From: Naegleria gruberi
Lineage: Eukaryota
DNA length: 64,000 nucleotides
Assembly: GCA_000004985.1 (NCBI GenBank)
Contig: GG738873.1
Strand: one strand, 5' to 3'
In this document: in pieces, positions 34,823 through 60,971 of the stretch
How the letters are laid out: each line of letters opens with the position of its first letter
Numbering within the stretch: the first letter of the stretch is position 1
Translations under genes and position numbers: made by a program
The notes under the pieces: generated by a model
Told to the model about the DNA's origin: nothing
Database searches by the model: none
The model's input: the letters and a program-made list of their open reading frames with translations, nothing else

Positions 34823-35216
34823 ATAGCAGAAGTAGACGGAAAGTGAAATTATCCACTTTGTCTTTGCACTTCAAATAATCAGTCAAATGTTTGATTGTTA
34901 TCGGATCTCTTTGAAGAGAAACTTTATCCGAAAGTGAATAAAGCTTAAGGACACCTTTTTTAACTTTAGGGTAAGAGACAGAAATATTAATTGTTCTGCC
35001 ATCAAGGTTAGCAAAGAATTGAATAGCTGCTTGCACAGTATTTGCTTTGTAACCTTGAACATTAACCAGAAGGTAAGAGATGTAATATTCAATAGCTAAA
35101 GGATTATCAATGGTAAGATCGAACACATTGATAAACCAAAGAAAACCACCATAAATCCTGTTGTAGGTTCTGAAGGTTTTTTCACCTATTGAAGAGAGAA
35201 TACTGATTTCTCTCAT
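34823..35216 (-). CDS. 5' part of putative tyrosine recombinase ORF (131 codons open, no stop, runs into gap). Translation starts MREISILSSIGEKTFRTYNRIYGGFLWFINVFDLTIDNPLAIEYYISYLLVNVQGYKANTVQAAIQFFANLDG...
   Basis: Hand translation of the minus strand from the ATG at 35216-35214. The ATG overlaps the pol TGA as ATGA (-1 frame). The pattern looks like the N-terminal SAM-like/core-binding domain of tyrosine recombinases and sits where the YR sits in DIRS elements. The ORF track does not list it because there is no stop before the Ns. Confidence 0.5.
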
Positions 35217-37267
35217 TGTTTGAATAACTTGCCATGCACTTGAACAACCAGGAAATTCGAATTCTCGAACTTGTCTTGCAACTCTGATAAGGGCGTTATT
35301 ATAAGCATCTTTCTCGAAACAGTTATCATTCTTTCTGATATCTTTAGCAAGACTGGAAACCATATCGAAGAGGGCCAATCTGGAACCACAAATGTCGCTT
35401 TGGCTCCTGACTTGATGCAGTGAACTAGAGCTTGAGATATCAGACCCAGAGGAGGCGCACAATAGCTCATCAGATTTTGTTCCCATGGGTTCAGAAATGT
35501 GTCGTTCTCTATCCATGAATTGAATTGAATTGTTGTGGTTGATTCCAATGTTGCGAATCTGTCCACGTGGTGTTCTCCAAATTCTGTCTGAACTAGATTC
35601 AATAGTTCTTGAGAGGATTTCCATTCTGTTAGACGACTCAGTCTGTCCGCCAAAATGTTTTCCTTTGAGGGAATATAAATCACTTTGGAAATCCACCATT
35701 TTCTTCTCATTAGAATTTTGTAGAGATCTCTGGCTATTTGTGAGAGTTCTTCGATGACTCCGTAACCTCTCCTTATATAAGATATTGCTGTTACATTGTC
35801 GCCTCTTATCTCGAATGCTTGACCAGGACCATAAAGGTTTAATTGATCTGCTTGTGTGAAGAAAATGAGGAGTGTTTTTAACTCTTTGACATTGATGTGC
35901 TCTGAGGAATTGAATCTTCCAATTGTAATGGTTGATTCTGCGTGAATTCCATAACCTGTTGGGCAAGCATCTGAATTCACTCGAATCGGGTTCATTGAGT
36001 TCAGTTCGAATGGAACTCCACTGTTTTCCTGAATCAGAGTTTTCAATATCTTGAGGTCTTTGGTTGCACCTCTGAATATTCTCATCGATGCGTGCCAGGA
36101 TTTGTCGTTTACTACTTTCACCATATCCTTTCGAAGACGAGCCAGAAATGGTGCAAAATAATGGTTTGATAGGGTTAGAAATTCCATCTTCCCAAGAAAC
36201 TGAGCCACTTTCTTGCAAGCTACATATCTGTTCAGTTGGTTCGCTGACAAGAAGTCTTGGATCAGTTTTATCGCAGTGGCTTGTTTGTTGAGTGGAATTT
36301 TTACCAAACCTGATATTAAATCCAATTCCAGACCCAGAAATTCTATGCATTGACAAGGTGTCAACACACTTTTCTCCTTCTGTATAATCCATCCTAATGT
36401 TTCTAGGTCTTTCAAGATTATCTCTGTGTGTTGTTGGGTAGTTTCCTTGTGGTTGCTTAGAATCAATATATCGTCGATGTAAATGAATACCAAGATGCCC
36501 TGCCTTCTCCACTTGGTCACTAGTTCCTTCATTATCTTGGTGAAGTTTCTGGGAGCTTGACTTAGACCAAATGGAAGGCATTTGAATTGGTATACAAGGC
36601 TCTTGTACTTGAATCCCAGAAGGTGTCGATGACTCTCTCTGATGGGAACATGAAAATAGCCTTTCTTCAGGTCTATCTTTGTTGCCCACATTCCTTTCTG
36701 AACAAACTTCAAACATTTTTGAATGTTGTCCATCTTGAACGAAGTATCCTTGATCCCCAAGTTTACTTTCCTGAGATCCAGAATAAAACGAAACTGATCT
36801 GAGCCCTTCTTGGGGACAATGTTTATTGGATTGAGTACCGTAGATTTGTTTCCAAGTTCGATGACATTGGAACTCAACATCTCTTGGATTTCTTGATCCA
36901 TCCAAGAGGTCTCCTTTGGAGAGAAATTCTTCCCCCGCTTGAATTCTTTCCAAAGGGTGGGATTTGAGTAGATTGGAACTCCATTCCGAATCCAATCCAC
37001 TATGAATGGGTTGAAGTTGTAACTCTCCCACTGAGTTACAAACTTGCCAAGACGACAACCCACCAAGTCAGAGGTCTTTGCTGAAGGATCCTCCACCGTT
37101 GTTGTTGTTGTACTTTGGTTTTGAGTCTCCTGATTTTTGAAAATTGGAGTTACTCTTGTAAGACTTAGAGTAGCTGTTGTGTTGAGAAGTGTAGGGTTTG
37201 TTCAACTTCTCTTTCATTTTGTTGGGTTTTTGAATCTTTCCAACAAAAGCAGTCTTGATAACAGCTT
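35213..37267 (-). CDS. DIRS-like pol: reverse transcriptase, RNase H, DIRS-type C-terminal domain. The frame stays open about 35 codons upstream of the listed GTG start, up to the 50-N gap
   Basis: 627-aa ORF with RT motifs (FRFILDLRKVN, PFGLSQAPRNF, YIDD), RNase H (DAS...G, ADRLSR) and the DIRS post-RH domain. The listed start codon at 37096 is GTG. Confidence 0.75.
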
Positions 37268-37317
37268 NNNNNNNNNNNNNNNNNNNNNNNNNNNNNNNNN
37301 NNNNNNNNNNNNNNNNN
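37268..37317. other. 50-N scaffold gap inside the DIRS-like element (between gag-like and pol ORFs)
   Basis: n run. Confidence 0.99.
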
Positions 37318-37320
37318 TAA

Positions 37321-38040
37321 CTAATTCTGTGATTTCATGATGTTAGCAACGTTCATTGGGTGACTTAAAGCGAAATGGAGTAGTCTAGATTTCAAATGCA
37401 ACATTTCCATCATCTTTTGCAAGCCCTTTGATTGGATTTCTTGCAAACGGGGATAAGTACGATGATTATGAATAACGGATTCAAATCTAGCCATTAATGA
37501 TTGAACTCTATTCAAAAGAGCATCATTGGTTTGATAACGACGAAGAGTTTTGGCTGAAACAAAACTTAAGACATCTCCATCGGCTAATCTGTCGCCAACT
37601 TCATAGTGTCTTCTAATCTCCTTGATTGTTGACATACCCCAATGTTTACCAGTGGAATCTTCAGCAGAATCCTCATCAGAGTTGTCATCAAGTTGATCAG
37701 CTTCTTGAAGGATGGGTGGAACTGCTTCAAGATGTTTAATTCTCTCACCCAATGAAGTGATGGCGTGAAGAATAGCATCTAGGTTCTTTTCAGAACCACC
37801 TTGGTTGTTATCCAAGGGTTTAGTTTGTGATGAAACTGGGTCATTTCCAGAACCACTTTGATTATTATCTAAAGGTTTAGTCTGTGATGACACTGAACTA
37901 CCTTCATCAATTGCTGGGATATATCCAGACTTGTAAGTTGAAACGCTGTCAGCTGACTTACTAGCAGAAATAATTTTTCTGATAGCAGTCACTGTTTTGC
38001 CAGGGGTGTCAGCAATGATTTTGCTTGGTGTGTTTACCAT
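37321..38040 (-). CDS. gag-like ORF of the DIRS-like element (239 aa, no zinc knuckle, Ser/Thr/Gln-rich internal repeat SSQTKPLDNNQ x2)
   Basis: Position immediately upstream of pol on the same strand. Helical C-terminal half. No independent homology recognised. Confidence 0.45.
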   Translation of the reverse strand: MVNTPSKIIADTPGKTVTAIRKIISASKSADSVSTYKSGYIPAIDEGSSVSSQTKPLDNNQSGSGNDPVSSQTKPLDNNQGGSEKNLDAILHAITSLGERIKHLEAVPPILQEADQLDDNSDEDSAEDSTGKHWGMSTIKEIRRHYEVGDRLADGDVLSFVSAKTLRRYQTNDALLNRVQSLMARFESVIHNHRTYPRLQEIQSKGLQKMMEMLHLKSRLLHFALSHPMNVANIMKSQN

Positions 38041-38141
38041 GTTTCTTAATTTTTTTGAGCATAAAAATTATTTATCAACTCAATTTTATTGTTTACAATT
38101 TGTCGAAATACTAACGTTGCATCGTTCCTCGCAACTAGCCA

Positions 38142-38159
38142 ATATATATATATATATAT
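38142..38159. repeat. (AT)9 microsatellite
   Basis: Direct reading. Confidence 0.9.
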
Positions 38160-38680
38160 TCTCAAAGTCATTTACAACTAATAAAGTGAAAATATACAAC
38201 ACTTGACTTACCAAGGTAACCAAATTACTAGATTCTAAAGGAAATACAATATATATTCATGGTATTACTCATCATACTCAAGTTTCTATTATCTTAAAAT
38301 TTTATTACGGCCAATTCAAACAGGCAACAAAAGCACACATTATCAGACATTGTAATAACAAATACTCAACCTTTTGTTGTTTATAATATGTGAAATCTAT
38401 TGACAGAACAAAATGAAATACAAAAAGTCTACTAATAAAGAGTTCTTACCAAGAAATCACCGAAAAACTCATGTAAAATAAAGAATAGAAAATCACTTTT
38501 AAGGGGTAAATAAATATAATCTGAACAGATAAATGAATTTGCGAGGAATTATGATAAAAAGGATGTAGTGAGAATGGGATTTGATAAAGAGAGGATAAGT
38601 AAAAAACATGATGAGGAGTATGATGAAGAATAAAAGGGAAATGATTTTTCTAACATAGATAAATATAATTTTTGTTCACA

Positions 38681-38799: not shown

Positions 38800-40187
38800 G
38801 AATTTAAATCGAGAAACACACTAAACCACCAAACGGTACTACTAAGCTTAAAATCTCTAATCCAACTCAAGTCACGGAACACTTTGACAAGATGTTCAAT
38901 ACTGCACTCGGAGACTCTAATTTGGATGAGAAATTAATCACAGGACACCCCAAACTTGCAGAATTTAGGGTTCCACCTGCTAACCCAAGTTTGCTTGCGA
39001 ATGTGGTTAGCCGTATGAAACACTCAATGCCTGGTAGTAATAAGGTGCCAATGATTGTTTCAAATTTATGAATGAAGATACTCTCCTTACCTTCTTTAAC
39101 AAAATATTTGTTGATGGTAACCCCTTCCCTGATTCTTGGAAAGCAGGTCTGCTACTTCCCCTACCTAAAAACTCGAATCCCAAATCACTCTCTGACTTCA
39201 GACCTATAGTTGTTCTCCCTATTCACTCAGCCCAAAGAGACTTCAAACGCCTTGCCTCAACTACTGACCAGCTCGTGGTGGTCTATCATTTCCGAATATA
39301 GAAAAACAAAGAAACCATTATTCATGTGCACCCTTGATATTAAGAATGCATATGGAAGTGTGGTCCATAGCAAGTTGAAATCTATCCTTCCCAGGATAGG
39401 TTTTAATAAGTCAGTAACCAATCTTGTTATGAAAATGGTTACGGGGCACAGAATCAAAGTGCTTGCTAATGGCTCAACATCACCAGCTTTTGAAGCAAGG
39501 TTTGGAGTCCCACAAGGGGATCCTATTAGCCCTCTTGTGTTCAATCTATACTTTAACACTGTTACTTCCGTGATTGATTCATATCAAGGAGCTTCCATTT
39601 GTGGAGAAAAAGTAGTTCTCCTTCTGTATGCAGACGATATCTTGGTTCTTTCTGAATCAGCTTCAGAATTAACCAATATACTTACTGAATTAAACTCAAT
39701 AGCCCTACAACTAGGGCTGCACTTCGCCACACACAAGTGCAAAGTATTTGGTGTCACTGCATCTGGCCTCAGATCTCGAGCAAAAGTTTACGTAAATGGT
39801 ACAAACATTAATAGTTCTAAGAATAATCCATTAGAGTATCTGGGTGCCTCCTTTATTAATAACATGTCTTGGTCTCCCTCCGATGATAAGGTTCTCTTAA
39901 AAGTTGAATCCAGATTACTAAATTTCAGACCAAAACACTTGAGACTCGGTCCAATGAGGAACGTAATATTATCTAAGGTGCTTTCTGTGCCTAGATACCT
40001 CTCAAGCGTAAATGCTATTCCACTTTCACTATTGGAAAAATTGGAAGTCAAAATTAGTGGAATTATTAAGAAAAGAATTGGATGTGACAACAGGCTCTCT
40101 AAAGCCGTTATCTATGGTGATAAATCCCAGGGTGGACTTGGGCTTTTATGTCCAGTTGATATAAGTCACGTGGAAAGGATGGCATCT
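38800..40187 (+). mobile_element. LINE copy 1: 5'-truncated, partly decayed non-LTR retrotransposon (RT half through the C-terminal region; 3' end lost in the gap)
   Basis: About 97-98% nucleotide identity to 41500-42900 of copy 2. Relative to copy 2, the 5' part has small indels, an approximately 70-nt deletion and frame breaks (ORFs 39068..39301 and 39210..40253). Confidence 0.85.
39210..40187 (+). pseudogene. RT motif A to thumb fragment of LINE copy 1. The frame is intact here and includes the 115 bp that copy 2 lacks
   Basis: TLDIKNAYGSV, GVPQGDPISPLVFNL and LLLYADDILVLS motifs. Continuous reading into LGLHFATHKCKVFG...VYVNGTN. Confidence 0.8.
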
Positions 40188-40237
40188 NNNNNNNNNNNNN
40201 NNNNNNNNNNNNNNNNNNNNNNNNNNNNNNNNNNNNN
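40188..40237. other. 50-N scaffold gap at the junction of the two tandem LINE copies
   Basis: n run. Followed by A-rich aaaaagaaaaaa, which may be the tail of copy 1. Confidence 0.95.
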
Positions 40238-40388
40238 AAAAAGAAAAAACTAGGCAGTCCTTTTAAGTCTGCTATTGTTCTTCGAAACGTGAATCTGAGA
40301 GTTTCCACTACTAAGGCAGCCGATTCCCCATGTATGGCTGTAGATAAAAGTGAACTCTCAGAGGAGGACAATTAAACATCACCTTAGA

Positions 40389-42461
40389 ATGGCCAGTTGC
40401 AACCTCTCGTCCTTTTCAATCGACAAACAGGCCATTCTTCTTCACCACATCAAGAACGAGAGGCTTGATGTTATTAACATCCAAGAATCGCACTGGGACT
40501 CCAGCGTGTTCAAGGATAATGTTAGTAAGGCTGCTAAGTTCTTTTCCCCTTGCAAGATTTATGGAACTCCATGTAGTCCAAATGATAAGGCAGCCGGAAT
40601 CCTCACTATTATCAAAGGTACTCTGCATAGAAAGGTAATTTCTTTTGAAGTGCTAGTTTCAGGCAGAGTTTCATGTTTAAAATTAGAAACTGATTATGGT
40701 GTTGTCAACATCATTAATTGGTACGGTGTGCAAAAGTATAGTAGTGAATTCCAGAACATCTTAACTAAGCTCTCAGAGTATTTACTGGAAGCTATGTTTC
40801 ACTCGGAACATGTTATTATAATGGGTGACCTTAATATCAACACCTTGTTTGGCTCGGAGAAGAGGAAAGCGAGCGCCTTCAATGAATGGTTACAAGTATT
40901 TAACCTGAATGATCTTGTTCCATGTCCGACTCGCCCCTCTTTTAAGTCTAGTAGAGGTAGCAAGAAGCCATATTCTACCAGACCAGATCATATTGTTAGC
41001 TCCCTACTCTCCAGCCAACTGTGGGATGTTGAAATGTTTCTTCAACACAAAATGGTCTGTGCTGAGTTTCAATTATTCGATTTGGAGAGCACTGCTAAAT
41101 TTGAGGAGGTTTTCAATATGTCTAAATTCAATAACAAAGCGTTTACTGAGAATCTAGACTGCATCAATTCAAAGATTGCTTCCTTTTCAGGAAAAGATCT
41201 TCAATCCTTCTTAACTGAGCTGTGCTCTCAGTATCATTCGCCGATTAGGAAATCTCCTTTGATTACTGATATTAAAGAATATAGAGATTTAGAGCGTATT
41301 CGGAGGGCTCTCCAAAAGGCTAAATGGTCTAACCGACCGAATAAGATAGCCAAGGAATTTATGGCTACTGTTGGTGTAGATAATGCAATTGTAGCCTATA
41401 AAGATGTGGTGAAGAAACAACAGAACGTTATCCTCAGTGCTCTTAAAGCTAGAAAAGAGGCTTTCAAAAAGGCAGTTAATAACCTTAAAAGTAGTGTTCC
41501 TTATAGATACGCGTTTAAATCGGAGCGTAACTCTAGCTCTGTGTTTAAAATCTCTGATCCAACTCAGGTCACGGAACACTTTGAAAAGATGTTCAATACT
41601 GCACTCGGAGACTCTAATTTGGATGAGAAATTAATCACAGGACACCCCAAACTTGCAGAATTTAGGGTCCCACCTGCTAACCCAGGTTTGCTTGCGAATG
41701 TGGTTAGCCGGATGAAACACTCAATGCCTGGTAGTGATAAGGTGCCAATGATTGTTTTCAAATCTATGAATGAAGATGCTCTCCTTACAGTGTGTTCAAT
41801 CTTTAACAAAATCCTTGTTGATGGTAACCCCATCCCTGATTCTTGGAAAGCAGGTCTGCTACTTCCCTTACCTAAAAACTCGAATCCCAAATCACTCTCT
41901 GACTTCAGACCTATTGTTGTTCTCCCTATTATTTATAGAATTTTTTCTTCCTATGTTAACTACCACCTCATGAACAAGGTGGACGAGGAAAAAGTGATTC
42001 ACTCAGCCCAAAGAGGCTTCAAACGCCTTGCCTCAACTACTGACCAGCTCGTGGTGGTCAAGTCTATCATTTCCGAATATAGAAAAACAAAGAAACCATT
42101 ATTCATGTGCACCCTCGATATTAAGAATGCATATGGAAGTGTGGTCCATAGCAAGTTGAAATCTATCCTTCCCAGGATAGGTTTTAATGAGTCAGTAACC
42201 AATCTTGTTATGAAAATGGTTACGGGGCACAGAATCAAAGTGCTTGCTAATGGCTCAACATCACCAGCTTTTGAAGCAAGGTTTGGAGTCCCACAAGGGG
42301 ATCCTATTAGCCCTCTTGTGTTCAATCTATACTTTAACACTGTTACTTCAGTGATTGATTCATATCAAGGAGCTTCCATTTGCGGAGAAAAAGTAGTTCT
42401 CCTTCTATATGCAGACGATATCTTGGTTCTTTCTTCAGATCTCGAGCAAAAGTTTACCTAA
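40389..42461 (+). CDS. LINE endonuclease-RT ORF. It terminates prematurely (..YADDILVLSSDLEQKFT*) because of the deletion
   Basis: See motifs above. A stop follows 9 codons after the deletion junction at about 42434. Confidence 0.8.
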   Translation: MASCNLSSFSIDKQAILLHHIKNERLDVINIQESHWDSSVFKDNVSKAAKFFSPCKIYGTPCSPNDKAAGILTIIKGTLHRKVISFEVLVSGRVSCLKLETDYGVVNIINWYGVQKYSSEFQNILTKLSEYLLEAMFHSEHVIIMGDLNINTLFGSEKRKASAFNEWLQVFNLNDLVPCPTRPSFKSSRGSKKPYSTRPDHIVSSLLSSQLWDVEMFLQHKMVCAEFQLFDLESTAKFEEVFNMSKFNNKAFTENLDCINSKIASFSGKDLQSFLTELCSQYHSPIRKSPLITDIKEYRDLERIRRALQKAKWSNRPNKIAKEFMATVGVDNAIVAYKDVVKKQQNVILSALKARKEAFKKAVNNLKSSVPYRYAFKSERNSSSVFKISDPTQVTEHFEKMFNTALGDSNLDEKLITGHPKLAEFRVPPANPGLLANVVSRMKHSMPGSDKVPMIVFKSMNEDALLTVCSIFNKILVDGNPIPDSWKAGLLLPLPKNSNPKSLSDFRPIVVLPIIYRIFSSYVNYHLMNKVDEEKVIHSAQRGFKRLASTTDQLVVVKSIISEYRKTKKPLFMCTLDIKNAYGSVVHSKLKSILPRIGFNESVTNLVMKMVTGHRIKVLANGSTSPAFEARFGVPQGDPISPLVFNLYFNTVTSVIDSYQGASICGEKVVLLLYADDILVLSSDLEQKFT

Positions 42462-43648
42462 ATGGTACTAACATTAATAGTTCTAAGAATAATCCGTTAG
42501 AGTATCTGGGTGCCTCCTTTATTAATAACATGTCTTGGTCTCCCTCCGATGATAAGGTTCTCTTAAAAGTTGAATCCAGATTACTAAATTTCAGACCAAA
42601 ACACTTGAGACTCGGTCCAATGAGGAACGTAATATTATCTAAGGTGCTTTCTGTACCTAGATACCTCTCAAGCGTAGATGCTATTCCACTTTCACTATTG
42701 GAAAAATTGGAAGTCAAAATTAGTGGAATTATTAAGAAAAGAATTGGATGTGACAACAGGCTCTCTAAAGCCGTTATATATGGTGATAAATCCCAGGGTG
42801 GACTTGGGCTTTTATCTCCAGTTGATATAAGTCACGTGGAAAGGATGGCATCTGTCTGTAGGTTTGTCAATTCTACCTCTCCTATCACCCAAAAAATCGC
42901 AAGAGCCATGATAAATAAGGCGCTCAAGGGTGAAACTACAGATTCACTGTGGAAAAATGCTGCCGCTACAATGAAAGATCTGAAATATTACTTCAAATCC
43001 ACAGATAATGGATGGGTCTTGTGTAACCATACCAATCACAAGCCTGTCTCCAACCTTAGAAATGCTATCATTGAAACTCAGCGATCCAAAAAAATTATCA
43101 ATAAGTTGGGCCAATTAGACAATGACTATAATTGGCATAACAGCACTCTCTCCTTCTGGAGAAACTCTCTCTTGTCTTATTATCAGCAAAGACTCCTCTA
43201 CTTTAATCTCCACCACTCAATTTTACTAGGTGATGACAGTACTTGTGACAAATGTAATGTCAAGGAAGATTGGACCCATGCATTCCAAACTTGTCCCAAA
43301 TGCAATCCTGAAAAGGATGAACTGTATGCCACATGGGACGCTATCTCCCAGAAATTTAGTATTAACAAGATTCGTTTCCCTCCTGATATCTCAGAATCCT
43401 CTCAACTTAGGATAGAATTTGATGGTCGTTGCTCCCGTAATTACTGGCTTAACTGGTCTAAGCGCAAAAAAATACCTAAGTATCTGGCCCTAGAAGTCTA
43501 CAAAGCACTAGCTATTTATTTGGAAAATTGCTACAAGAACTCAGTGTGGTACAACCGTCCCAATGCAAGCTTCACTATTAACAGGAAATACCTCTCTGCC
43601 TACCACAGGCAGGCTCAGTCTAACCAACCACTTAGCGTCAACCCATAA
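42437..43648 (+). pseudogene. LINE copy 2 downstream reading frame (RT thumb plus CCHC C-terminus), disconnected from the EN-RT frame by the 115-bp deletion
   Basis: Copy 1 positions 39654-39768 are absent from copy 2; 115 is not a multiple of 3. The downstream frame matches the copy 1 frame. Confidence 0.8.
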
Positions 43649-43716
43649 CACTTAAACGCTGAACCGAAACTTACTGGTTGTAGACCTCGTCTCTCAGGTC
43701 TTTACGATACAAGAGA

Positions 43717-44214
43717 ATGAGAGCATTTTATCTCTAAACACAAATAAAAATTAATTGCACAGATTTAAAAATTTGTGATTTGTGTTTGTGTAGACAGACC
43801 ATTTTATCTTGAAAACACAAAAGTATTTTATTAAAATAATAAATTATTGTGGTCTTGAATCTTAGGTTGTTTTCTATGAATCTAGTAGTAAAAGTTCATT
43901 CGTCGTTGATCTTGAAATATGTGATCCGATATCAATATTGTTGTTGCAAGAATTGGACATGAATCGGGTTCTAATGGTTGCTGATTTCTTCTCCCGTTTG
44001 ATGAAGGAGAAGTTTAATACATTTTTTATTAATTAAATATTAAAAAATGTAAGAATGGAATAATTTTAAATAAAAATATGTATTTGTGCAAGATAAAATG
44101 GCCTGTCTACACAAACACAAACACAAATTTGTGAAAATATTTTAGCACAATTTAGCACAAATATTCATGTGTAATTAATTTTTTATTTGTGAATAGTGAT
44201 AAAATGCTCTCAAT
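43717..44214. repeat. Foldback/MITE-like element. Imperfect terminal inverted repeats of about 95-125 nt (43717-43812 versus 44089-44214, termini TGAGAGCATTTTATC...) flank an AT-rich spacer of about 275 bp
   Basis: The reverse complement of gagcattttatctctaaacacaaataaaaattaattgcacag...gtgtttgtgtagacagaccattttatcttg aligns to caagataaaatggcctgtctacacaaacacaaacacaaatttg...taattaattttttatttgtgaatagtgataaaatgctc. Confidence 0.7.
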
Positions 44215-44261
44215 AAATATAACAATTTATTTTTTATTTAATAAATATTACAATTTATTTT

Positions 44262-47200
44262 TTATTTTACCATGATTGTCAATGTATCTGCAATTAAACT
44301 TGTTGACAAGTAGGTATTGTATCCAATAGTTTCTTTTGTATATCTAATGGCATATCCATATGGGAAATAAGTCCAATTATTGCCATTGCACCCATCAGAG
44401 GAGTGAATTACACTGAGCCAATCTCTTTCACTACCACAACCACCAAAACCATATTGAATTATGAAATGCCTTGGAGTTATTGAAGGACCAGTCAATTGCA
44501 TGGTAAAAGCAGTATAGCTATTAACATAAGAGCTTAATCCGTAAGAGGAAGATTGTATTTTCTGAGGTGTAAACCAATTTTTGAAATCAGTACCTGCTAC
44601 GTTGAATAGAATATAGTGTTGCATTGCTGAGTCCTTGTTAATTTCGATCTTTACAGTACCAAACGAACTCCAATAATTCAAGAGGTCACCTATTAATACT
44701 GTATCTGGAGTATACTTGTCCAATGTTCCCCTAATATTGATCTTTGAATTCCAAACATCTGCAGGTCCATATGGTTGACCAGTTGCAATCTTATTAACAA
44801 GTGTGTAACCACCTCCATCAGTGGTCATGTCACAATACACGTTGAACGGAGCTACTGATGGATCTGGTTGGATAGTATAAACACCATCACCAACATTACC
44901 ACCATAGACTCTGCTAGAGTTTGTTGGGTATCTATAATCTTGGCACGTTCTGGCATAGGTAAAATCAGCAAATTTCCTTCCTTCACCACATCCAACTATA
45001 CCAACAATTGAACAGGAAGGTCCATAACGAGAAGGCCCACAAAAACATTGTCCATCAACGCAAACTCCTGCATAGTTGCAAGTAACACCAAGATTAGGAG
45101 CAGAGAAGCAATAAAGCTTTCCAGTTGGTACGTTATTGTCTGATGATAGACAGTAACTATACACCGAGCCATCTGTACTCCAGATAGAAACATTACTAGT
45201 GGATATATACTCATTGCTCCAGTAACTGTTGCTATACATTCGGGATGGTATTGAATTAGAATAGTTCGTATTCCAATACAACGACAAAGGAATGGTATAG
45301 ATGTCATGTCTTGAGAAACTGGAGGTTTCTTGCTCACAGAATACAGCTAGTGGAGGAAATCCTAATGATCCTTGAATAAGATAAAGACCTCTACCTGTCA
45401 TACCTTGATATGTTTTTGAAGAATTTGTTGGATTACTATATTCTGCACAGTTCTTGGCAAATGTTCCATCTGCATATCTTCTTAATCCATTAATAGAAAC
45501 AACACCCACCAATTCACAGAATTTACCAAAATGGCCATATTCACATTGGCATGTATCATAATCCACACAAACTCCTTTGGAGGAGCAAACAGATTTGCTG
45601 GATGCTTGAAAATTGTTACAATATACGCAGAAAAATGGGTTTTGCTTGCACCATTCTGAGGTTCTGTTTTCCCCATCATATACAGCCATCCATGACCCAA
45701 CTGGATCTTCCTTTTCTGCAACGGCAAAATATGGACCAGCGTTGCCATCGGTTGTGTTGGATCCACCGTAAATATATATATAACCACCTTGGGAGGATAT
45801 TATTCCTGAACTTGTCATATAGTATGGAAGTAAACCAAATGTCATTTCCCACTTCAATGGATTTTCTGTAGTAGCTCTAAAAATGTTGAATGAAGATGAC
45901 TCAAATGTTGTGGAACCACCAAATAGATAAATGTAATCACCAACAACTTCAATAAATGCAGAATACAATGGCACAGGAATGACAGAACCATTTACAATCT
46001 CGAATTGTGTAATATTTGACAATGGAGCCCTCATGATAGTGTCTAATATAACTGGAGTGAAGCTTGGGACATTGGAAGGGTCCTCAATATCTGTCAGTGG
46101 TCTATAACTGAATATTCTAGAAATGCCACCAAATATATAAACATAATCACCAGATTGCATTATCATACCCGATGCAACAGGGACTGGGAGAGAAAATGGA
46201 GTCTTTTCCCATTGTTTCAAATCATATAGAGGACATTTGTAAATTGCATTTGACACGTTATTGTTAACAATTCCCCCAAACAAGTACATTTCCTCATTGT
46301 GTTTGAAAAAGTGAGAGTTATGAATTGAATCTGGGAATCCCTCATTTGATGTGATATTATACTCTATCATCGACCAAACATTTTCATTTTTAGAGATGTT
46401 TCTAGTGTACATGCTGAATCCATTATTTACAAGTGATGGCACTGTGTCATCAGCTTTTAACAAATAACCAATCTCACCCAAATCAAAGTAAGTCATCTTC
46501 CTCATATACCATGGCAAGGTCATGGTGACATGATTATTCATTCTAACAAACTTTCCACTTGGACTAAGAGAATAAATTTTAGAGATTGGCGTTCCGGTCC
46601 AATGGTATGGTTTTGTGTCATAGCAAGAACTTCCAGCAAATATTTCAATATTAGAACAATAACCCACAGCCATAACTGTCCCATCTGCTAGGAATAAATA
46701 ACTATTATCTTCATTACTAGTTATGTCAACCACTGGTTGGAATGAATAATAGACTTTGGTAGGAACAAGAACATTGGAATTAGTTAAGCCAGTACCTGTC
46801 TGACCAGCGTCACTCTTACCCCAAGAATATAGAGTTCTATCTTTGCAATAAACAAAATTATGGAAAGCTTTCGTGTGTATCATTGTGGCAAAACAAGTAG
46901 TGTTTGGTCCAAATTGAGATAAAATCTTTGGAAGTAATCTGTTAGTGGTTGAGTTATCTCCAACTTGGTAATAATTATTAAGACCCCATGAATAGACTCT
47001 TCCACTTGTAGTTAGAATCAAGTTGTGTCCATATCCGCATTGAATATCAGTAATTGTTTCATTGATATGTTTTGTTATAACTTCAATAGGTTCTCCTTGA
47101 GATACATTGTTATTAGTACCAAGTTGTCCCCATCCATTGTAACCCATTGAATACAGTCTATTGGTATTCGACAATACAAGTGCATGCTTAAAACCAGCAC

Positions 47201-48286
47201 AAACCCTAACCATAGTTTGATTCATTAAGGCTGCATACCTGTAAACAGAAAAAGGCCTGTTTTTTTCATCCCAAGTTCTATCCCCCAGTTGACCTTGATC
47301 GTTAGCACCCCAGCTCCATAGTTTTCCTGATGAATCAATTGCGTAGGCTGAAAAATATCCTAGTGCGATTTGCTCAATTTTTGCACCTCTAAATCCATTT
47401 ACAAATGTTGGGACAAACTTTGTTTTGGTTCCTCCGGTAGCCAATTGTGAACGTTCATTTAACCCAAAAGCAAAAACTCCCTTGTTTGTGAGAATAAGGT
47501 TGGAAAATTGATTTGCCTCGATTTGAAGAATATCCAATCCATCTAAAAGTTCAACAGGAGCATTATATATTAATCTAGTATCATTGGTTAGATGAATTCT
47601 TCCAAGATTACCATTTTCAAAAACTCCAGTTGAGTACAATTTACCGTTGGGCATTAAAATTAATACATGTTTTAACCCAGCACTAATTCTATTTCTAATT
47701 CTTTTAATCGGCAGTCTTGTGTCAAATCTTTCGTAAACCCCTCTTTTACAATTGACAGTAAAATGATCTTGGTTTGTTTCATTTAAATTTGTTTCTCTAA
47801 AATACAATTCTTCACCATAGTCTTCTACGGTGTAATTCTTAACAATTTCAGTTTTTTTCGAAGTCAATTCATACTTACATTCATGACATCAGAAGATTTT
47901 CTTCCCAAATCCTCGATACTGTTTAATCCCAATGAAAGAATATATGAATTTTCCAGTTCCCAACTCAATACCTTTGCAACATTTTGATTGTTTTTGGAAA
48001 CCATAGATTCGAAAATAGTCTTATTGATATTAAGTTGTTCCAGGATTGGAGCTGCTAAATTCAATGCGTCCTCCTTGTCAATAGCTATTGGCTTGGCTCT
48101 ACTGCTGACAAATTTGTCGCGCTCCTCCTGAAGATTGGTCATAACGTTGATAAAACTCTTTTGTTTATCCTTCCAACTTTTAACCAAGGACATTTCATAT
48201 TGTTGTTCCTGATTGTTGATGTCGATATATCCACTTATCTCAACCGTATCATATATTAAAAGTACTAGTGGTAAAGTTGTCATCAT
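44262..48286 (-). CDS. Paralogue A of the RCC1-Kelch family, two exons: join(48286..47879, 47837..44262) with a 41-nt GTAAGT...TTAAG intron. Domain order: hydrophobic N-terminus MMTTLPLVLLIY, about 120-aa helical region, roughly 6 RCC1 repeats, LPWY motif linker, roughly 5 Kelch repeats, EGF-like Cys module, truncated FReD-like segment, second EGF-like module, fibrinogen-related domain
   Basis: RCC1 signatures (GYNGWGQLGTNNN, WGANDQGQLGD, HALVLSNT). Kelch signatures (EMYLFGG, YVYIFGG, YIYLFGG, YIYIYGG). FReD signature CQDYRYPTNSSRVYGGNVGDGVYTIQPDPSVAPFNVYCDMTTDGGGYTLV. The exon-1 ORF 47864..48286 ends in ATG AAT | GTAAGT, and the acceptor restores NYTVEDYG of the 1201-aa ORF in frame. Confidence 0.8.
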
Positions 48287-58401: not shown

Positions 58402-60971
58402 TTAATTACAAATGGTTGGATATTTTGAACAAATTGTTGAAAGGGCTGTAGTTGTACCACCAACCCAACCATCAGGGAAGCTTGTTCTGGTGGTTCTATA
58501 AATGTTAGGACCAACCAAACTGTTGCCTGTGGAAGCACCTGAGAACACGACATCATTAGCACTACTTGAAAAGACAGAAGAACCTGAATTGACATGGAAT
58601 GTGAGTTGGGATTTAAGGGTCCAGGAAACAAAATCAGATGTTGAATAAATCTTGTTTGATTGTGATGAAGAAAGGGATGTCAGACCTCCAATTATATAAT
58701 AATTACTGTCTGTGTCAACCTTGTAGACAAAAGCAGAATGTAGGACTGAAGGGAACTTGGAATTAAACATGATTTCCCAGTTTCTCATATCTGAATCTAC
58801 GCTTGTTCTTAATACAGTTTGAGAAATAACGAGATTTTGAATTGCATCAACATCTCTAGAAGAGTTGAAAAGATGTGTTTGCTTAATACCCCCAATGATA
58901 TACACATATTGTGTATCAGAAATCAGCATTCCTGATGCCAATGGGAACGGAAGCTTCTGGTCTAACAATTCCCATCCAAACAATGGGTCAGAAATAGGAG
59001 CTCTGTAAATTGAATTTGATATTTCATTATTAACAAACCCACCGAGCATATATATATATTCCTTGATTCTAATGATGTGTGTACTGTAGATTGATTTCCC
59101 ATAGAGCGTGTTATTGAGAACTGAGGTTGGAGATACTTGCTGCCATGAACTGTAATAGCTACCAGGATTGGTACTGTTGTAGTATCCAAATTCTAGACCA
59201 TTTCTTGATAAGAAACTCTTATCAGATTTAAGTAAATAACCTTTTCCGTTCAAATTGAAATATGGACTTTGTCTCAAATACCATGGTAAATAGGTAAAAG
59301 TGTACATGGAATCTTTTGTAAAGCTGTTAGAAACAGAACCAATTGACCTGAATACAGTTGTGGAGAAAGTACTGCCCGAGTAGTAGATGGATCCATCCAT
59401 CGTTTGAAGAGCAAAGCTTCCCGTTGAGCTACTAGCAATATCCAAAATGGAATCAACAAACTCTGTGCTAAAAGACGAGTAAAGAGTAGGTGAGGTCACA
59501 GTGGAAGCAGTTGAACCGAGTCCCAATTCACCATTTGAGTTTCTTCCATATCCGTACATTTTACCATTTGTGCAAATGAGTATTGTACTATAAAACTTTG
59601 AGTAAACTTTTTTAACACTACAAGGTGCGCTTAGGAGTTGAGGAGTGAACCTTGTGGTTGTGGATCCATCACCCAATTGACCATAGTTGTTGTATCCCCA
59701 TGTAACAACTTTTCCATCTGTAGTCAAAACAACAACGTGGTTAGATCCGCATTGAACATCAAGGATGTTAACTGCAGAGAGAGCACCAGTGAGTGGAATT
59801 GCTACAGGTTTACTTTTAAAAGAAGGATCTGTTACACCAATGCCTAATTGACCTAGAGAATTATCTCCAAATGAAGCTAACGTATTGTCACTTGTAAGGA
59901 CCACAACAAAACTATCTCCAGCGCAGACTTTGACAACTTGCTTGTTTTTTAAAGGTCCATTATTCTTTAGCACCTTAAAAGGTCTAAATTTATCTTCTTG
60001 GGTGCTGTCACCAAGTTGTCCTAAAGAGTTATCACCCCAGGCCCACAACTCGCCATCAGTTGTGATGGCGTACGAGCTTCTGCCTCCTGATGCAATTTGC
60101 TCAACTTTCTTCCCCAATAATCCTTTTACTTTAACTGGATTCAAACTATCAGCTTTGTTTCCAGTTCCTAATTGACCATTAGAATTGGAGCCAAAAGAGA
60201 ACAATCCCTCATTAGTAAGTACAAGATTTGTACGAGAGTATGTTTCTACTTGGTAGATAGTTTCAGAAGCAATAGGAATAGAGTCATTATACCTTAGTGC
60301 AGAACCGGAATAGGTTCTTCCAAGTAGCCCTACCTTTAAAGAGTCAATTCCAGTGGAATAGAGTTTTCCATTTCCTAAAATTACTATAAAATGTTGCTCA
60401 CCTCCGGAAAGGAAATTTCTAATTTGTTTTACAGTTCCTTGTGAGGTCTCTAAATTGAACAATGAATTGCCACTGTTTAGAAATCTTCCAGTTGGAACTT
60501 CTTCATTGCTGCCAATACTTTTGGTATAGGTAAAATCTTGTGATGTCAAAATGTCTTTTGAAATCATTCTCTAAGTGCAAACTAATTAATTTAGAATTTT
60601 TGTAAATTACTTACAGTGTGAAATTTTGTTATTGAGCTATTCGAAAAAGCAATGACCTTATTAATCATTTGCGTGACAATGCCAAGCTCTTCAAGCTTAG
60701 ACTTAATATCTTCCAAGGATTTTGATTTCAAAGCACTAAGGTTGTTTATGTAGTCTGCTGTAACTCCATACTGGGAAGCAAATGCAGATATACCATATGT
60801 ATCGTACAGAAAAGAAATTGAACTAGTAAATTCCAAATGAAGGTTTTTTGAGGTTTCTAAAGGAGGAATAAGTGTGGTGTTGATGTAATCAATTACATTG
60901 GAATGGGATACTCTTTGATTGAGACTCATCCTTAAGCCTTCCTCATAGTCCTCATATGTAAGGCCATCCAC
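58402..60971 (-). CDS. Paralogue B of the RCC1-Kelch family: join(60971..60615, 60570..58402) with a 44-nt GTAAGT...CACTTAG intron. Exon 1 is open upstream to about 61031 with no ATG, so a further 5' exon is likely. Ends after the Kelch propeller with no EGF or FReD tail
   Basis: RCC1 repeats (FGSNSNGQLGTGN, WGDNSLGQLGDST, WGYNNYGQLGDGSTT). LPWYLRQSPYF linker. Kelch repeats (YIYMLGG, YVYIIGG, YYIIGG). Exon-1 ORF 60591..60971 ends ..KFHT | GTAAGT. Same architecture as A and C. Confidence 0.75.

What the first reader, a model, noticed from the sequence alone, without database searches (positions are those of the whole stretch)
43717..44214. About 500-bp foldback/MITE-like element with roughly 100-nt imperfect terminal inverted repeats, between the LINE 3' end and the stop codon of paralogue A
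The arms 43717-43812 and 44089-44214 are reverse complements of each other over most of their length. The termini share TGAGAGCATTTTATC, and the internal blocks share CACAAATAAAAATTAATTGCACA and TGTGTTTGTGTAGACAGACCATTTTATCTTG; both arms carry indels. They flank an AT-rich spacer of about 275 nt. The right arm contains a tandem TTTAGCACAA x2. The element sits 70 nt after the LINE stop and ends 48 nt from the convergent stop of paralogue A, where it would fall in both 3' UTRs and could form a long hairpin in either transcript. It could be a non-autonomous DNA transposon of the foldback or MITE type, or a structured terminator or hairpin-RNA precursor shared by the convergent transcripts.
Basis: seen in the sequence. 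Interest (0 to 1): 0.55.

Follow-up and report, generated by a model that had tools for sequence, protein, structure and literature searches.

The report
Long inverted repeat beside a LINE end
A 495-bp stretch of Naegleria gruberi DNA really does have about 100-nt inverted-repeat ends and is most likely a dead miniature DNA transposon, but no second copy could be looked for, so this stays an ordinary and unproven call.

Summary
Positions 43718-44212 (495 bp) carry two arms, 43718-43812 and 44089-44212. They are reverse complements at 88 of 93 aligned positions, with one indel of about 30 nt, and flank a non-palindromic spacer. This is the only long inverted repeat in the 29 kb of real sequence, and the fold z-scores are -12 to -14. 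The organism is Naegleria gruberi.

A related LINE on a metagenome contig aligns up to window position 43716 and then diverges. So the LINE ends 1-2 nt before the left arm. The foldback is not LINE 3' UTR; it abuts the LINE terminus.

Points that fit a MITE or foldback-type non-autonomous transposon:
- sharp termini;
- an outer and an inner copy of a CATTTTATC motif in each arm;
- no coding capacity;
- AT-richness;
- a neighbourhood full of transposable elements.

The two defining tests are open. Copy number could not be measured because N. gruberi DNA was unreachable with these tools. The only candidate target-site duplication is a 3-bp AAT.

A one-off local inverted duplication remains a serious rival, possibly one linked to the LINE insertion. 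A role as a terminator or hairpin-RNA precursor has no support. Interest is low.

The parts
43718..43812 (.). Left arm, high-identity core (95 nt). It starts TGAGAGCATTTTATC.
   Evidence: 88 of 93 aligned positions are identical to the reverse complement of 44089-44212.
44089..44212 (.). Right arm, high-identity core (124 nt). It ends GATAAAATGCTCTCA.
43813..43840 (.). Degenerate inner extension of the left arm. It is A/T-rich and pairs with 44060-44088 through several small indels.
   Evidence: (I1). The extended arms give 111 matches, 6 mismatches and 42 gap columns.
44060..44088 (.). Degenerate inner extension of the right arm.
43841..44059 (.). Non-palindromic spacer of 219 nt. Its centre (about 43890-43980) reaches 32-43% GC, against 10-27% in the arms. 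The longest open frames are 56 aa (+) and 44 aa (-), and neither has a protein match.
   Evidence: frames and GC; no homologue at E <= 1; the two halves are not complementary.
43719..43732 (+). Outer copy of the arm motif, GAGAGCATTTTATC, in the left arm.
   Evidence: it matches the inner copy at 13/14 and 16/19 positions, equalled by 0/300 and 2/300 shuffles.
43795..43808 (+). Inner copy of the arm motif, CAGACCATTTTATC, in the left arm, 76 nt from the outer copy.
   Evidence: (D3).
44092..44105 (-). Inner copy of the arm motif in the right arm (CAGGCCATTTTATC on the - strand), 106 nt from the outer copy.
   Evidence: Read from the sequence. It matches the right outer copy at 11/14 positions; that arm's best 14-nt direct repeat, also 11/14, is not significant.
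44198..44211 (-). Outer copy of the arm motif in the right arm (GAGAGCATTTTATC on the - strand).
44131..44167 (.). Stretch of the right arm holding about 30 nt that the left arm lacks (37 nt against the left arm's 7, 43762-43768). It includes the tandem TTTAGCACAA x2 at 44141-44160.
43649..43717 (+). 3' UTR of LINE copy 2. The terminal block TCTCTCAGGTCTTTACGATACAAGAGA (43690-43716) is conserved in a related LINE and marks the LINE's 3' end. There is no poly(A).
   Evidence: the BLASTN alignment to L017 ends at 43716; 25 of 27 positions are identical, then the sequences diverge.
44212..44267 (.). A 28-bp tandem duplication (2.0 copies, 96%). It begins at the right terminus of the foldback and contains the last Lys codon and the stop codon (44262-44264) of paralogue A. 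It also carries three minus-strand AATAAA hexamers.
   Evidence: (D2).
43716..43718 (.). AAT, the left copy of the only candidate target-site duplication. It applies if the terminal repeat starts at G 43719. The right copy is 44212-44214.
   Evidence: 3/3 match. All duplications of 4-10 bp fail.

Best explanation
Positions 43718-44212 are one degenerate copy of a non-autonomous cut-and-paste DNA transposon of the long-inverted-repeat kind (MITE or foldback-like) in Naegleria gruberi.

Each arm of about 95-125 nt carries an outer and an inner copy of a [G/C]CATTTTATC...CACAAA motif. These would be the binding sites for a transposase supplied by an autonomous relative elsewhere in the genome. 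The spacer is non-coding cargo. The copy has since gained a 30-nt indel and about 5% substitutions between its arms, and is probably no longer mobile.

It sits in a cluster of transposable elements, with a DIRS-like element and two copies of one LINE family upstream. One LINE's 3' terminus touches its left end.

Shown: the anatomy of the inverted repeat, its statistical significance, its independence from the LINE, and the absence of coding capacity.

Inferred: mobility, the transposase-binding role of the motifs, and inactivity.
For: - Both termini are abrupt. Complementarity starts at 43718 and 44212 with 15 perfect bases, and the flanks are unrelated.
- The arms are 94.6% identical at aligned positions. 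This is the only long inverted repeat in 29 kb.
- The left arm has direct outer and inner copies of one motif starting at the very terminus: 13/14 and 16/19 matches, equalled by 0/300 and 2/300 shuffles. All four copies of the motif in the window lie in the element (the fourth was read).
- The element is 495 bp and AT-rich, with no ORF above 56 aa. Its ORFs have no protein homologue, and Rfam gives no match.
- It is not LINE sequence. Homology with a related LINE stops at 43716.
- It is not a conserved part of the gene's 3' end. The convergent spacer after a homologue is about 105 nt with no inverted repeat.
- The neighbourhood is TE-rich: RT-bearing ORFs at 35213-37096, 39210-40253 and 40350-42461.
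- A 3-bp AAT flanks GAGAGC...GCTCTC on both sides.
Against: - No second copy was seen anywhere: not in the window, and only chance 19-23-nt hits in metagenome, viral and prokaryote contigs. These collections do not hold the N. gruberi genome, so this says little either way.
- The 3-bp AAT match is weak in AT-rich DNA. It is also meaningless if the LINE inserted after the foldback.
- Duplications of 8-10 bp score only 3-5 matches. That argues against hAT, Mutator, P, Merlin and Drosophila-FB type insertion, unless the LINE displaced the left flank.
- The outer/inner motif match is not significant in the right arm (11/14).
- The exact abutment with the LINE's 3' terminus is an unexplained coincidence under this model.
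Confidence: 0.45

Rival explanations
1. This is a single-copy local inverted duplication (palindrome) that was never mobile. One arm was copied from the other by fold-back or snap-back DNA synthesis at a break. That break may be the very minus-strand 3' end that then primed reverse transcription of the LINE, which would make the outer edge of the repeat and the LINE's 3' junction the same point. Alternatively, the palindrome was originally longer and the LINE insertion merely defines its visible left edge.
For: - The LINE's 3' terminus (43716/7) lies 1-2 nt from the start of the repeat. This model explains that without any coincidence.
- Substitution divergence between the arms (5 of 93, about 5%) is similar to the divergence between the two LINE copies in the window (93-98% identity). 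The two events could therefore be of similar age.
- No other copy was found.
- No convincing target-site duplication exists.
Against: - The outer/inner direct motif begins exactly at the terminus, which this model leaves unexplained.
- The right boundary at 44212 is also sharp.
- The flank upstream of LINE copy 1 shows only marginal similarity to the reverse complement of the right flank (score 37, equalled by 14 of 300 shuffles).
- Inner-arm similarity decays through indels rather than ending at a clean microhomology junction.
- As far as I know, a palindrome coupled to target-primed reverse transcription has not been described.
Confidence: 0.27
2. The arms are two separate insertions of one short repeat of about 100-150 nt, such as a SINE-like retroposon or a TE fragment, lying tail to tail. 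The 219-nt spacer is ordinary target DNA, and the foldback is an accident of arrangement.
For: - Read from outer to inner end, each arm finishes in an A/T-rich, poorly conserved stretch (43813-43840 and 44060-44088). This resembles the variable tail of a retroposed element.
- The spacer is not palindromic and has a different composition from the arms.
- The neighbourhood is TE-rich.
Against: - No tRNA-like or other RNA family match was found in 43300-44700.
- No third copy of the arm exists in the window.
- The arm's inner end does not resemble the 3' end block of the neighbouring LINE, beyond a 7-mer TGTAGAC (read).
- No per-arm target-site duplications were seen, though these were only checked by eye.
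- Two independent insertions 219 nt apart in opposite orientation is itself unlikely.
Confidence: 0.1
3. Whatever its origin, the hairpin is kept because it works as RNA. It could be a hairpin-RNA (siRNA) precursor, or a structured transcription or 3'-end element for paralogue A or for LINE read-through transcripts.
For: - Both strands are predicted to form a very stable long hairpin.
- The element lies 49 nt downstream of the stop codon of paralogue A, so read-through would transcribe it.
Against: - The arms match no gene in the window that could be a target.
- Rfam gives no match.
- Three AATAAA hexamers lie between the stop codon and the hairpin. If N. gruberi uses such signals, the mRNA may end before reaching it.
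- The LINE RNA ends before the element.
- Other convergent gene ends, both here and in a related organism, have no hairpin.
- One arm carries a 30-nt indel, which suggests there is no selection for perfect pairing.
Confidence: 0.08
4. The left arm, or the whole foldback, is part of the LINE's 3' UTR.
For: It directly follows the LINE. No poly(A) tail marks the LINE's end.
Against: A LINE with 64% amino-acid identity on contig L017 aligns at the DNA level through the 3' UTR up to window 43716. It shares the terminal block TCTCTCAGGTCTTTAYGATAYAAGAGA (25 of 27 positions) and then diverges completely.
Confidence: 0.03

Closest known systems
[quoted passage not shown]
   Same: It is under 800 bp, AT-rich and non-coding, has terminal inverted repeats, sits next to a gene's 3' end, and can fold into a hairpin.
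   Different: The inverted repeats are far longer (95-125 nt) than the typical 10-40 nt. Multi-copy status, a target-site duplication and a matching autonomous element are all unverified.
Foldback elements (Drosophila FB, plant FARE and SoFT)
   Same: The arms make up 44% of the element (56% with the degenerate extensions) and flank a short unrelated middle. The whole unit folds back on itself.
   Different: The arms of those elements are built from arrays of short tandem subrepeats and have 9-bp target-site duplications (my own knowledge). Here the only tandem subrepeat is one 10-nt doublet in one arm, and a 9-bp duplication is absent (4/9 matches).
IR/DR-type Tc1-like transposon ends (Sleeping Beauty, Tc3, Minos)
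   Same: Each long inverted repeat has one outer and one inner direct copy of a candidate binding motif.
   Different: Those elements have repeats of about 200-250 bp, start with CAGT-like termini and duplicate TA (my own knowledge). Here there is no flanking TA and the terminus is (T)GAGAGC.
Xenopus Tx1L/Tx1D (a site-specific LINE living inside a DNA transposon)
   Same: A LINE without a poly(A) tail is joined to an element that has terminal inverted repeats.
   Different: Tx1L inserts inside Tx1D at a fixed internal sequence (my own knowledge). Here the LINE abuts the outer terminus, only one junction is visible, and a related LINE on L017 has an unrelated 3' flank.

Membership tests
MITE / non-autonomous TIR transposon | Terminal inverted repeats with sharp ends | tested here: met
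   15 perfect terminal bases, 88 of 93 aligned positions identical, and unrelated flanks.
MITE / non-autonomous TIR transposon | Small size and no coding capacity | tested here: met
   The element is 495 bp. Its longest ORFs are 56 and 44 aa, with no homologue.
MITE / non-autonomous TIR transposon | Many dispersed copies in the same genome | not testable with these tools
   There is no second copy in the 29 kb of window. N. gruberi DNA could not be reached. The scanned collections do not even contain the window's own sequence.
MITE / non-autonomous TIR transposon | Target-site duplication of a length typical of a superfamily | tested here: inconclusive
   Only AAT (3/3) matches, and only if the repeat starts at G 43719. 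TA, TTAA, TWA and duplications of 4-10 bp are absent. The left flank is the LINE terminus, so it may not be the original flank.
MITE / non-autonomous TIR transposon | An autonomous relative with the same termini that encodes a transposase | not testable with these tools
   No transposase gene lies in the window. The genome is not searchable.
Foldback (FB-like) elements | Arms composed of tandem subrepeat arrays | tested here: not met
   TRF finds only TTTAGCACAA x2 in the right arm. Otherwise the arms are unique sequence with one outer/inner motif pair.
Foldback (FB-like) elements | 9-bp target-site duplication | tested here: not met
   4 of 9 positions match. The caveat is that the LINE may have displaced the left flank.
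IR/DR Tc1-like ends | Outer and inner direct repeats in each inverted repeat | tested here: inconclusive
   The left arm is significant (16/19, equalled by 2 of 300 shuffles). The right arm is not (11/14).
IR/DR Tc1-like ends | TA target-site duplication | tested here: not met
   The flanks are AA|T...A|AT, with no TA on either side.
PIF/Harbinger (Tourist-like MITE) | 3-bp TWA target-site duplication | tested here: not met
   The 3-bp candidate is AAT, not TAA or TTA.
LINE 3' UTR | Sequence shared with other copies or relatives of the same LINE beyond the stop codon | tested here: not met
   Homology to L017 ends at 43716, before the foldback.
Hairpin-RNA / miRNA-like precursor | Stable long hairpin in a transcript | tested here: inconclusive
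   The hairpin is predicted. Transcription across it is unknown, and Rfam gives no match.
Hairpin-RNA / miRNA-like precursor | Small RNAs mapping to the arms | not testable with these tools
   No expression data are available.

The most novel reading that the evidence does not exclude
The foldback and the LINE junction are one event. The nicked minus-strand 3' end at the LINE target site first snapped back and copied about 125-150 nt of its own strand, which created the left arm. It then switched to the LINE RNA's 3' end for target-primed reverse transcription. That would be an undescribed way for LINE integration to create palindromes. A milder variant is that this poly(A)-less LINE family specifically targets the terminus of the foldback repeat, in the manner of Tx1L/Tx1D.
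Probability: 0.07. Interest if true: 0.6.

Novelty: new member of a known kind. Interest (0 to 1): 0.2.

Why it matters
If this is a MITE or foldback family, it adds one entry to the poorly classified repeat content of N. gruberi. [quoted passage not shown] That is routine annotation.

The only mildly unusual point is that the LINE's 3' terminus touches the terminus of the repeat. If other copies of this LINE showed the same junction, it would point to target specificity or to a link between LINE integration and palindrome formation.

Tried and rejected
**Reaching N. gruberi genomic DNA.** I tried look-ups by exact protein for seven N. gruberi or close proteins and one window ORF. None was on record.

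**Scanning for other copies.** I scanned with arm motifs as follows:
- metagenome contigs twice;
- viral contigs twice;
- prokaryote genomes once.

The result was 0 hits, or 14 loci that match only 19-23 nt, which is chance.

**Searching with the spacer ORFs.** A protein search with the two longest spacer ORFs found nothing.

**Rfam.** A search over 43300-44700 at E <= 1 found nothing.

**Literature.** Searches for described Naegleria MITEs or DNA transposons gave only general statements (PMC12344493, PMC3266345).

**Hypothesis that the arms are LINE 3' UTR or two LINE tails.** Rejected, because homology to the related LINE stops at 43716.

**Hypothesis that the left arm continues upstream of LINE copy 1.** The similarity is only marginal, so I dropped it.

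**My own idea that 40238-40372, just after the gap, encodes the C-terminus of LINE ORF1.** There is no similarity to L017 ORF1 or to P0008, so I dropped it.

**Similarity of the arms to the DIRS-like element at 34823-38500.** None was found.

**Correction to my own age estimate.** From ungapped identity of 82-89% I first judged the arms to be much older than the LINE. The gapped alignment shows only about 5% substitutions, which is similar to the LINE copies.

Full report
**Material.** Only 34823-64000 of the window is real sequence. Positions 1-34822 are N, and there are 50-N gaps at 37268-37317 and 40188-40237.

The organism is Naegleria gruberi or a very close relative. The C-terminal ORF of the neighbouring LINE (42380-43648) is 97% identical to N. 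gruberi predicted proteins.

**The observation.** The inverted repeat is real.
- Self-BLAST pairs 43718-43761 with 44212-44168 (89%) and 43769-43840 with 44130-44060 (82%).
Almost all the gaps are about 30 extra nt in the right arm at 44131-44167, which contains the TTTAGCACAA doublet.
- Similarity continues inward, through small indels, to 43840 and 44060.
- The remaining 219-nt spacer is not palindromic. Its centre is richer in GC than the arms.
- Nothing comparable exists elsewhere in the 29 kb.
- Folding gives -159.5 and -152.9 kcal/mol as RNA and -97.8 as DNA, with z-scores of -11.7, -14.4 and -13.3.

**Relation to the LINE.** This is the main new fact. Members of a 64%-identical protein cluster lie on ENA metagenome contigs that could be fetched.

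The DNA alignment of L017 to the window LINE runs through the 3' UTR and stops at window 43716. The last 27 nt, TCTCTCAGGTCTTTACGATACAAGAGA (43690-43716), are identical at 25 of 27 positions. Immediately afterwards the two sequences are unrelated.

Three things follow.
- The LINE has a short 3' UTR without poly(A), ending at 43716/7.
- The foldback is not LINE sequence.
- The LINE terminus lies only 1-2 nt from the left terminus of the repeat.

The window also holds a second copy of the same LINE at 38848-40187. It is 5'-truncated, 93-98% identical, and runs into a gap.

**Anatomy relevant to mobility.** Complementarity begins abruptly at both ends.

Each arm has an outer and an inner copy of a [G/C]CATTTTATC motif followed by CACAAA. 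In the left arm the two copies match at 13/14 and 16/19 positions, which 0 and 2 of 300 dinucleotide shuffles equal. In the right arm they match at only 11/14, which is not significant. This arrangement recalls the outer and inner binding sites of IR/DR transposon ends (my own knowledge).

The only flanking direct repeat is AAT, and only if the terminal repeat is taken as GAGAGC...GCTCTC. TA, TTAA, TWA and duplications of 4-10 bp are absent. Because the left flank is the LINE terminus, it may not be the original flank, so the target-site test is inconclusive.

The spacer's open frames (56 and 44 aa) have no homologue, and Rfam finds nothing.

**Copy number.** I could not measure it. The element has no second copy in the window. 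Exact-pattern scans of metagenome, viral and prokaryote collections gave nothing, or chance hits of 19-23 nt. None of the N. gruberi proteins tried is linked to retrievable DNA.

**Function as a 3'-end structure.**
- Three AATAAA hexamers lie between the stop codon of paralogue A (44262-44264) and the foldback.
- Another convergent pair in the window ends 4 nt apart.
- The convergent spacer after a 50%-identical homologue on contig L020 is about 105 nt with no inverted repeat.

So the hairpin is an addition to this locus, not a conserved feature of it.

**Weighing the readings.**

*Non-autonomous DNA transposon copy.* This best explains the sharp termini, the motif pairs, the size, the composition and the TE-rich setting. 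It leaves the abutment with the LINE as a coincidence. I put it at about 0.45.

*One-off inverted duplication.* This explains the abutment directly, either by fold-back synthesis at the LINE's priming end or because the LINE cut a longer palindrome. Arm divergence of about 5% is comparable to the 2-7% between the two LINE copies, so age does not separate the two events. It does not explain the motif pair at the terminus, and the coupled mechanism has no precedent that I know of. I put it at about 0.27.

*Two inverted insertions of a short repeat:* about 0.10.

*A selected RNA hairpin:* about 0.08.

*LINE 3' UTR:* about 0.03, effectively rejected.

**Verdict.** The statement about the LINE 3' UTR needs correcting. 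The case is ordinary unless other LINE copies show the same junction.

Noticed in passing
window 1-34822, 37268-37317, 40188-40237: More than half of the window is N. Two 50-N scaffold gaps fall inside or next to retroelements, so the local TE arrangement is only partly assembled.
   Followed up: yes
window 43690-43717; L017 4615-4641: The LINE family has no poly(A) tail. It ends in a conserved 27-nt block, TCTCTCAGGTCTTTAYGATAYAAGAGA, whose ends (TCTCT and AGAGA) could pair as a small stem. The block is shared with a LINE of only 64% amino-acid identity from a metagenome.
   Followed up: partly
window 38848-40187 and 40350-43717: There are two head-to-tail copies of the same LINE, 93-98% identical. 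Copy 1 is 5'-truncated near 38840-38848 and runs into a gap. Relative to copy 1, copy 2 lacks 115 nt at 42434/42435, which splits its ORF2 into two frames.
   Followed up: partly
window 44212-44267: A 28-bp tandem duplication (96% identity) starts exactly at the right terminus of the foldback. It duplicates the last Lys codon, the stop codon and 22 nt of the 3' flank of paralogue A. Its origin is unexplained; replication slippage next to a hairpin or an abortive staggered break are possibilities.
   Followed up: partly
window 35213-38040 (- strand): This is a retroelement of a different kind from the LINE. Its RT ORF has a weak C-terminal match to Dam-type DNA N6-adenine methyltransferase (PF05869, E 4e-5), and an upstream 239-aa ORF contains a 57-bp tandem repeat. 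RT plus a methyltransferase-like domain is the DIRS/PAT-like architecture (my own knowledge). DIRS1-like sequences were reported as uncertain in N. gruberi (PMC3266345).
   Followed up: partly
window 44262-48286 (- strand): Paralogue A (RCC1-like, Kelch, EGF and fibrinogen-C domains) has no N. gruberi counterpart in the protein collection. Its best hits are N. fowleri and N. lovaniensis at 45-53% identity. A 140-aa ORF (47864-48286) overlaps its start by 4 nt, which suggests an intron or frameshift and a full length near the 1367-1388 aa of the two best hits, both covering 99% of the query.
   Followed up: no
window 59648-59762 vs 62757-62643: There is a 115-nt inverted match at 71% identity. 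One copy lies in the RCC1-domain gene at 58402-60567 and the other about 3 kb downstream. This is probably a further paralogue in the opposite orientation.
   Followed up: no
protein P0008 (N. gruberi XP_002673784, 1920 aa): This annotated N. gruberi gene model fuses an EGF-rich host protein to the same LINE family's ORF2. An intervening segment may be the LINE's ORF1, but that was judged by eye only. The published proteome therefore contains at least one chimeric model caused by this LINE.
   Followed up: no
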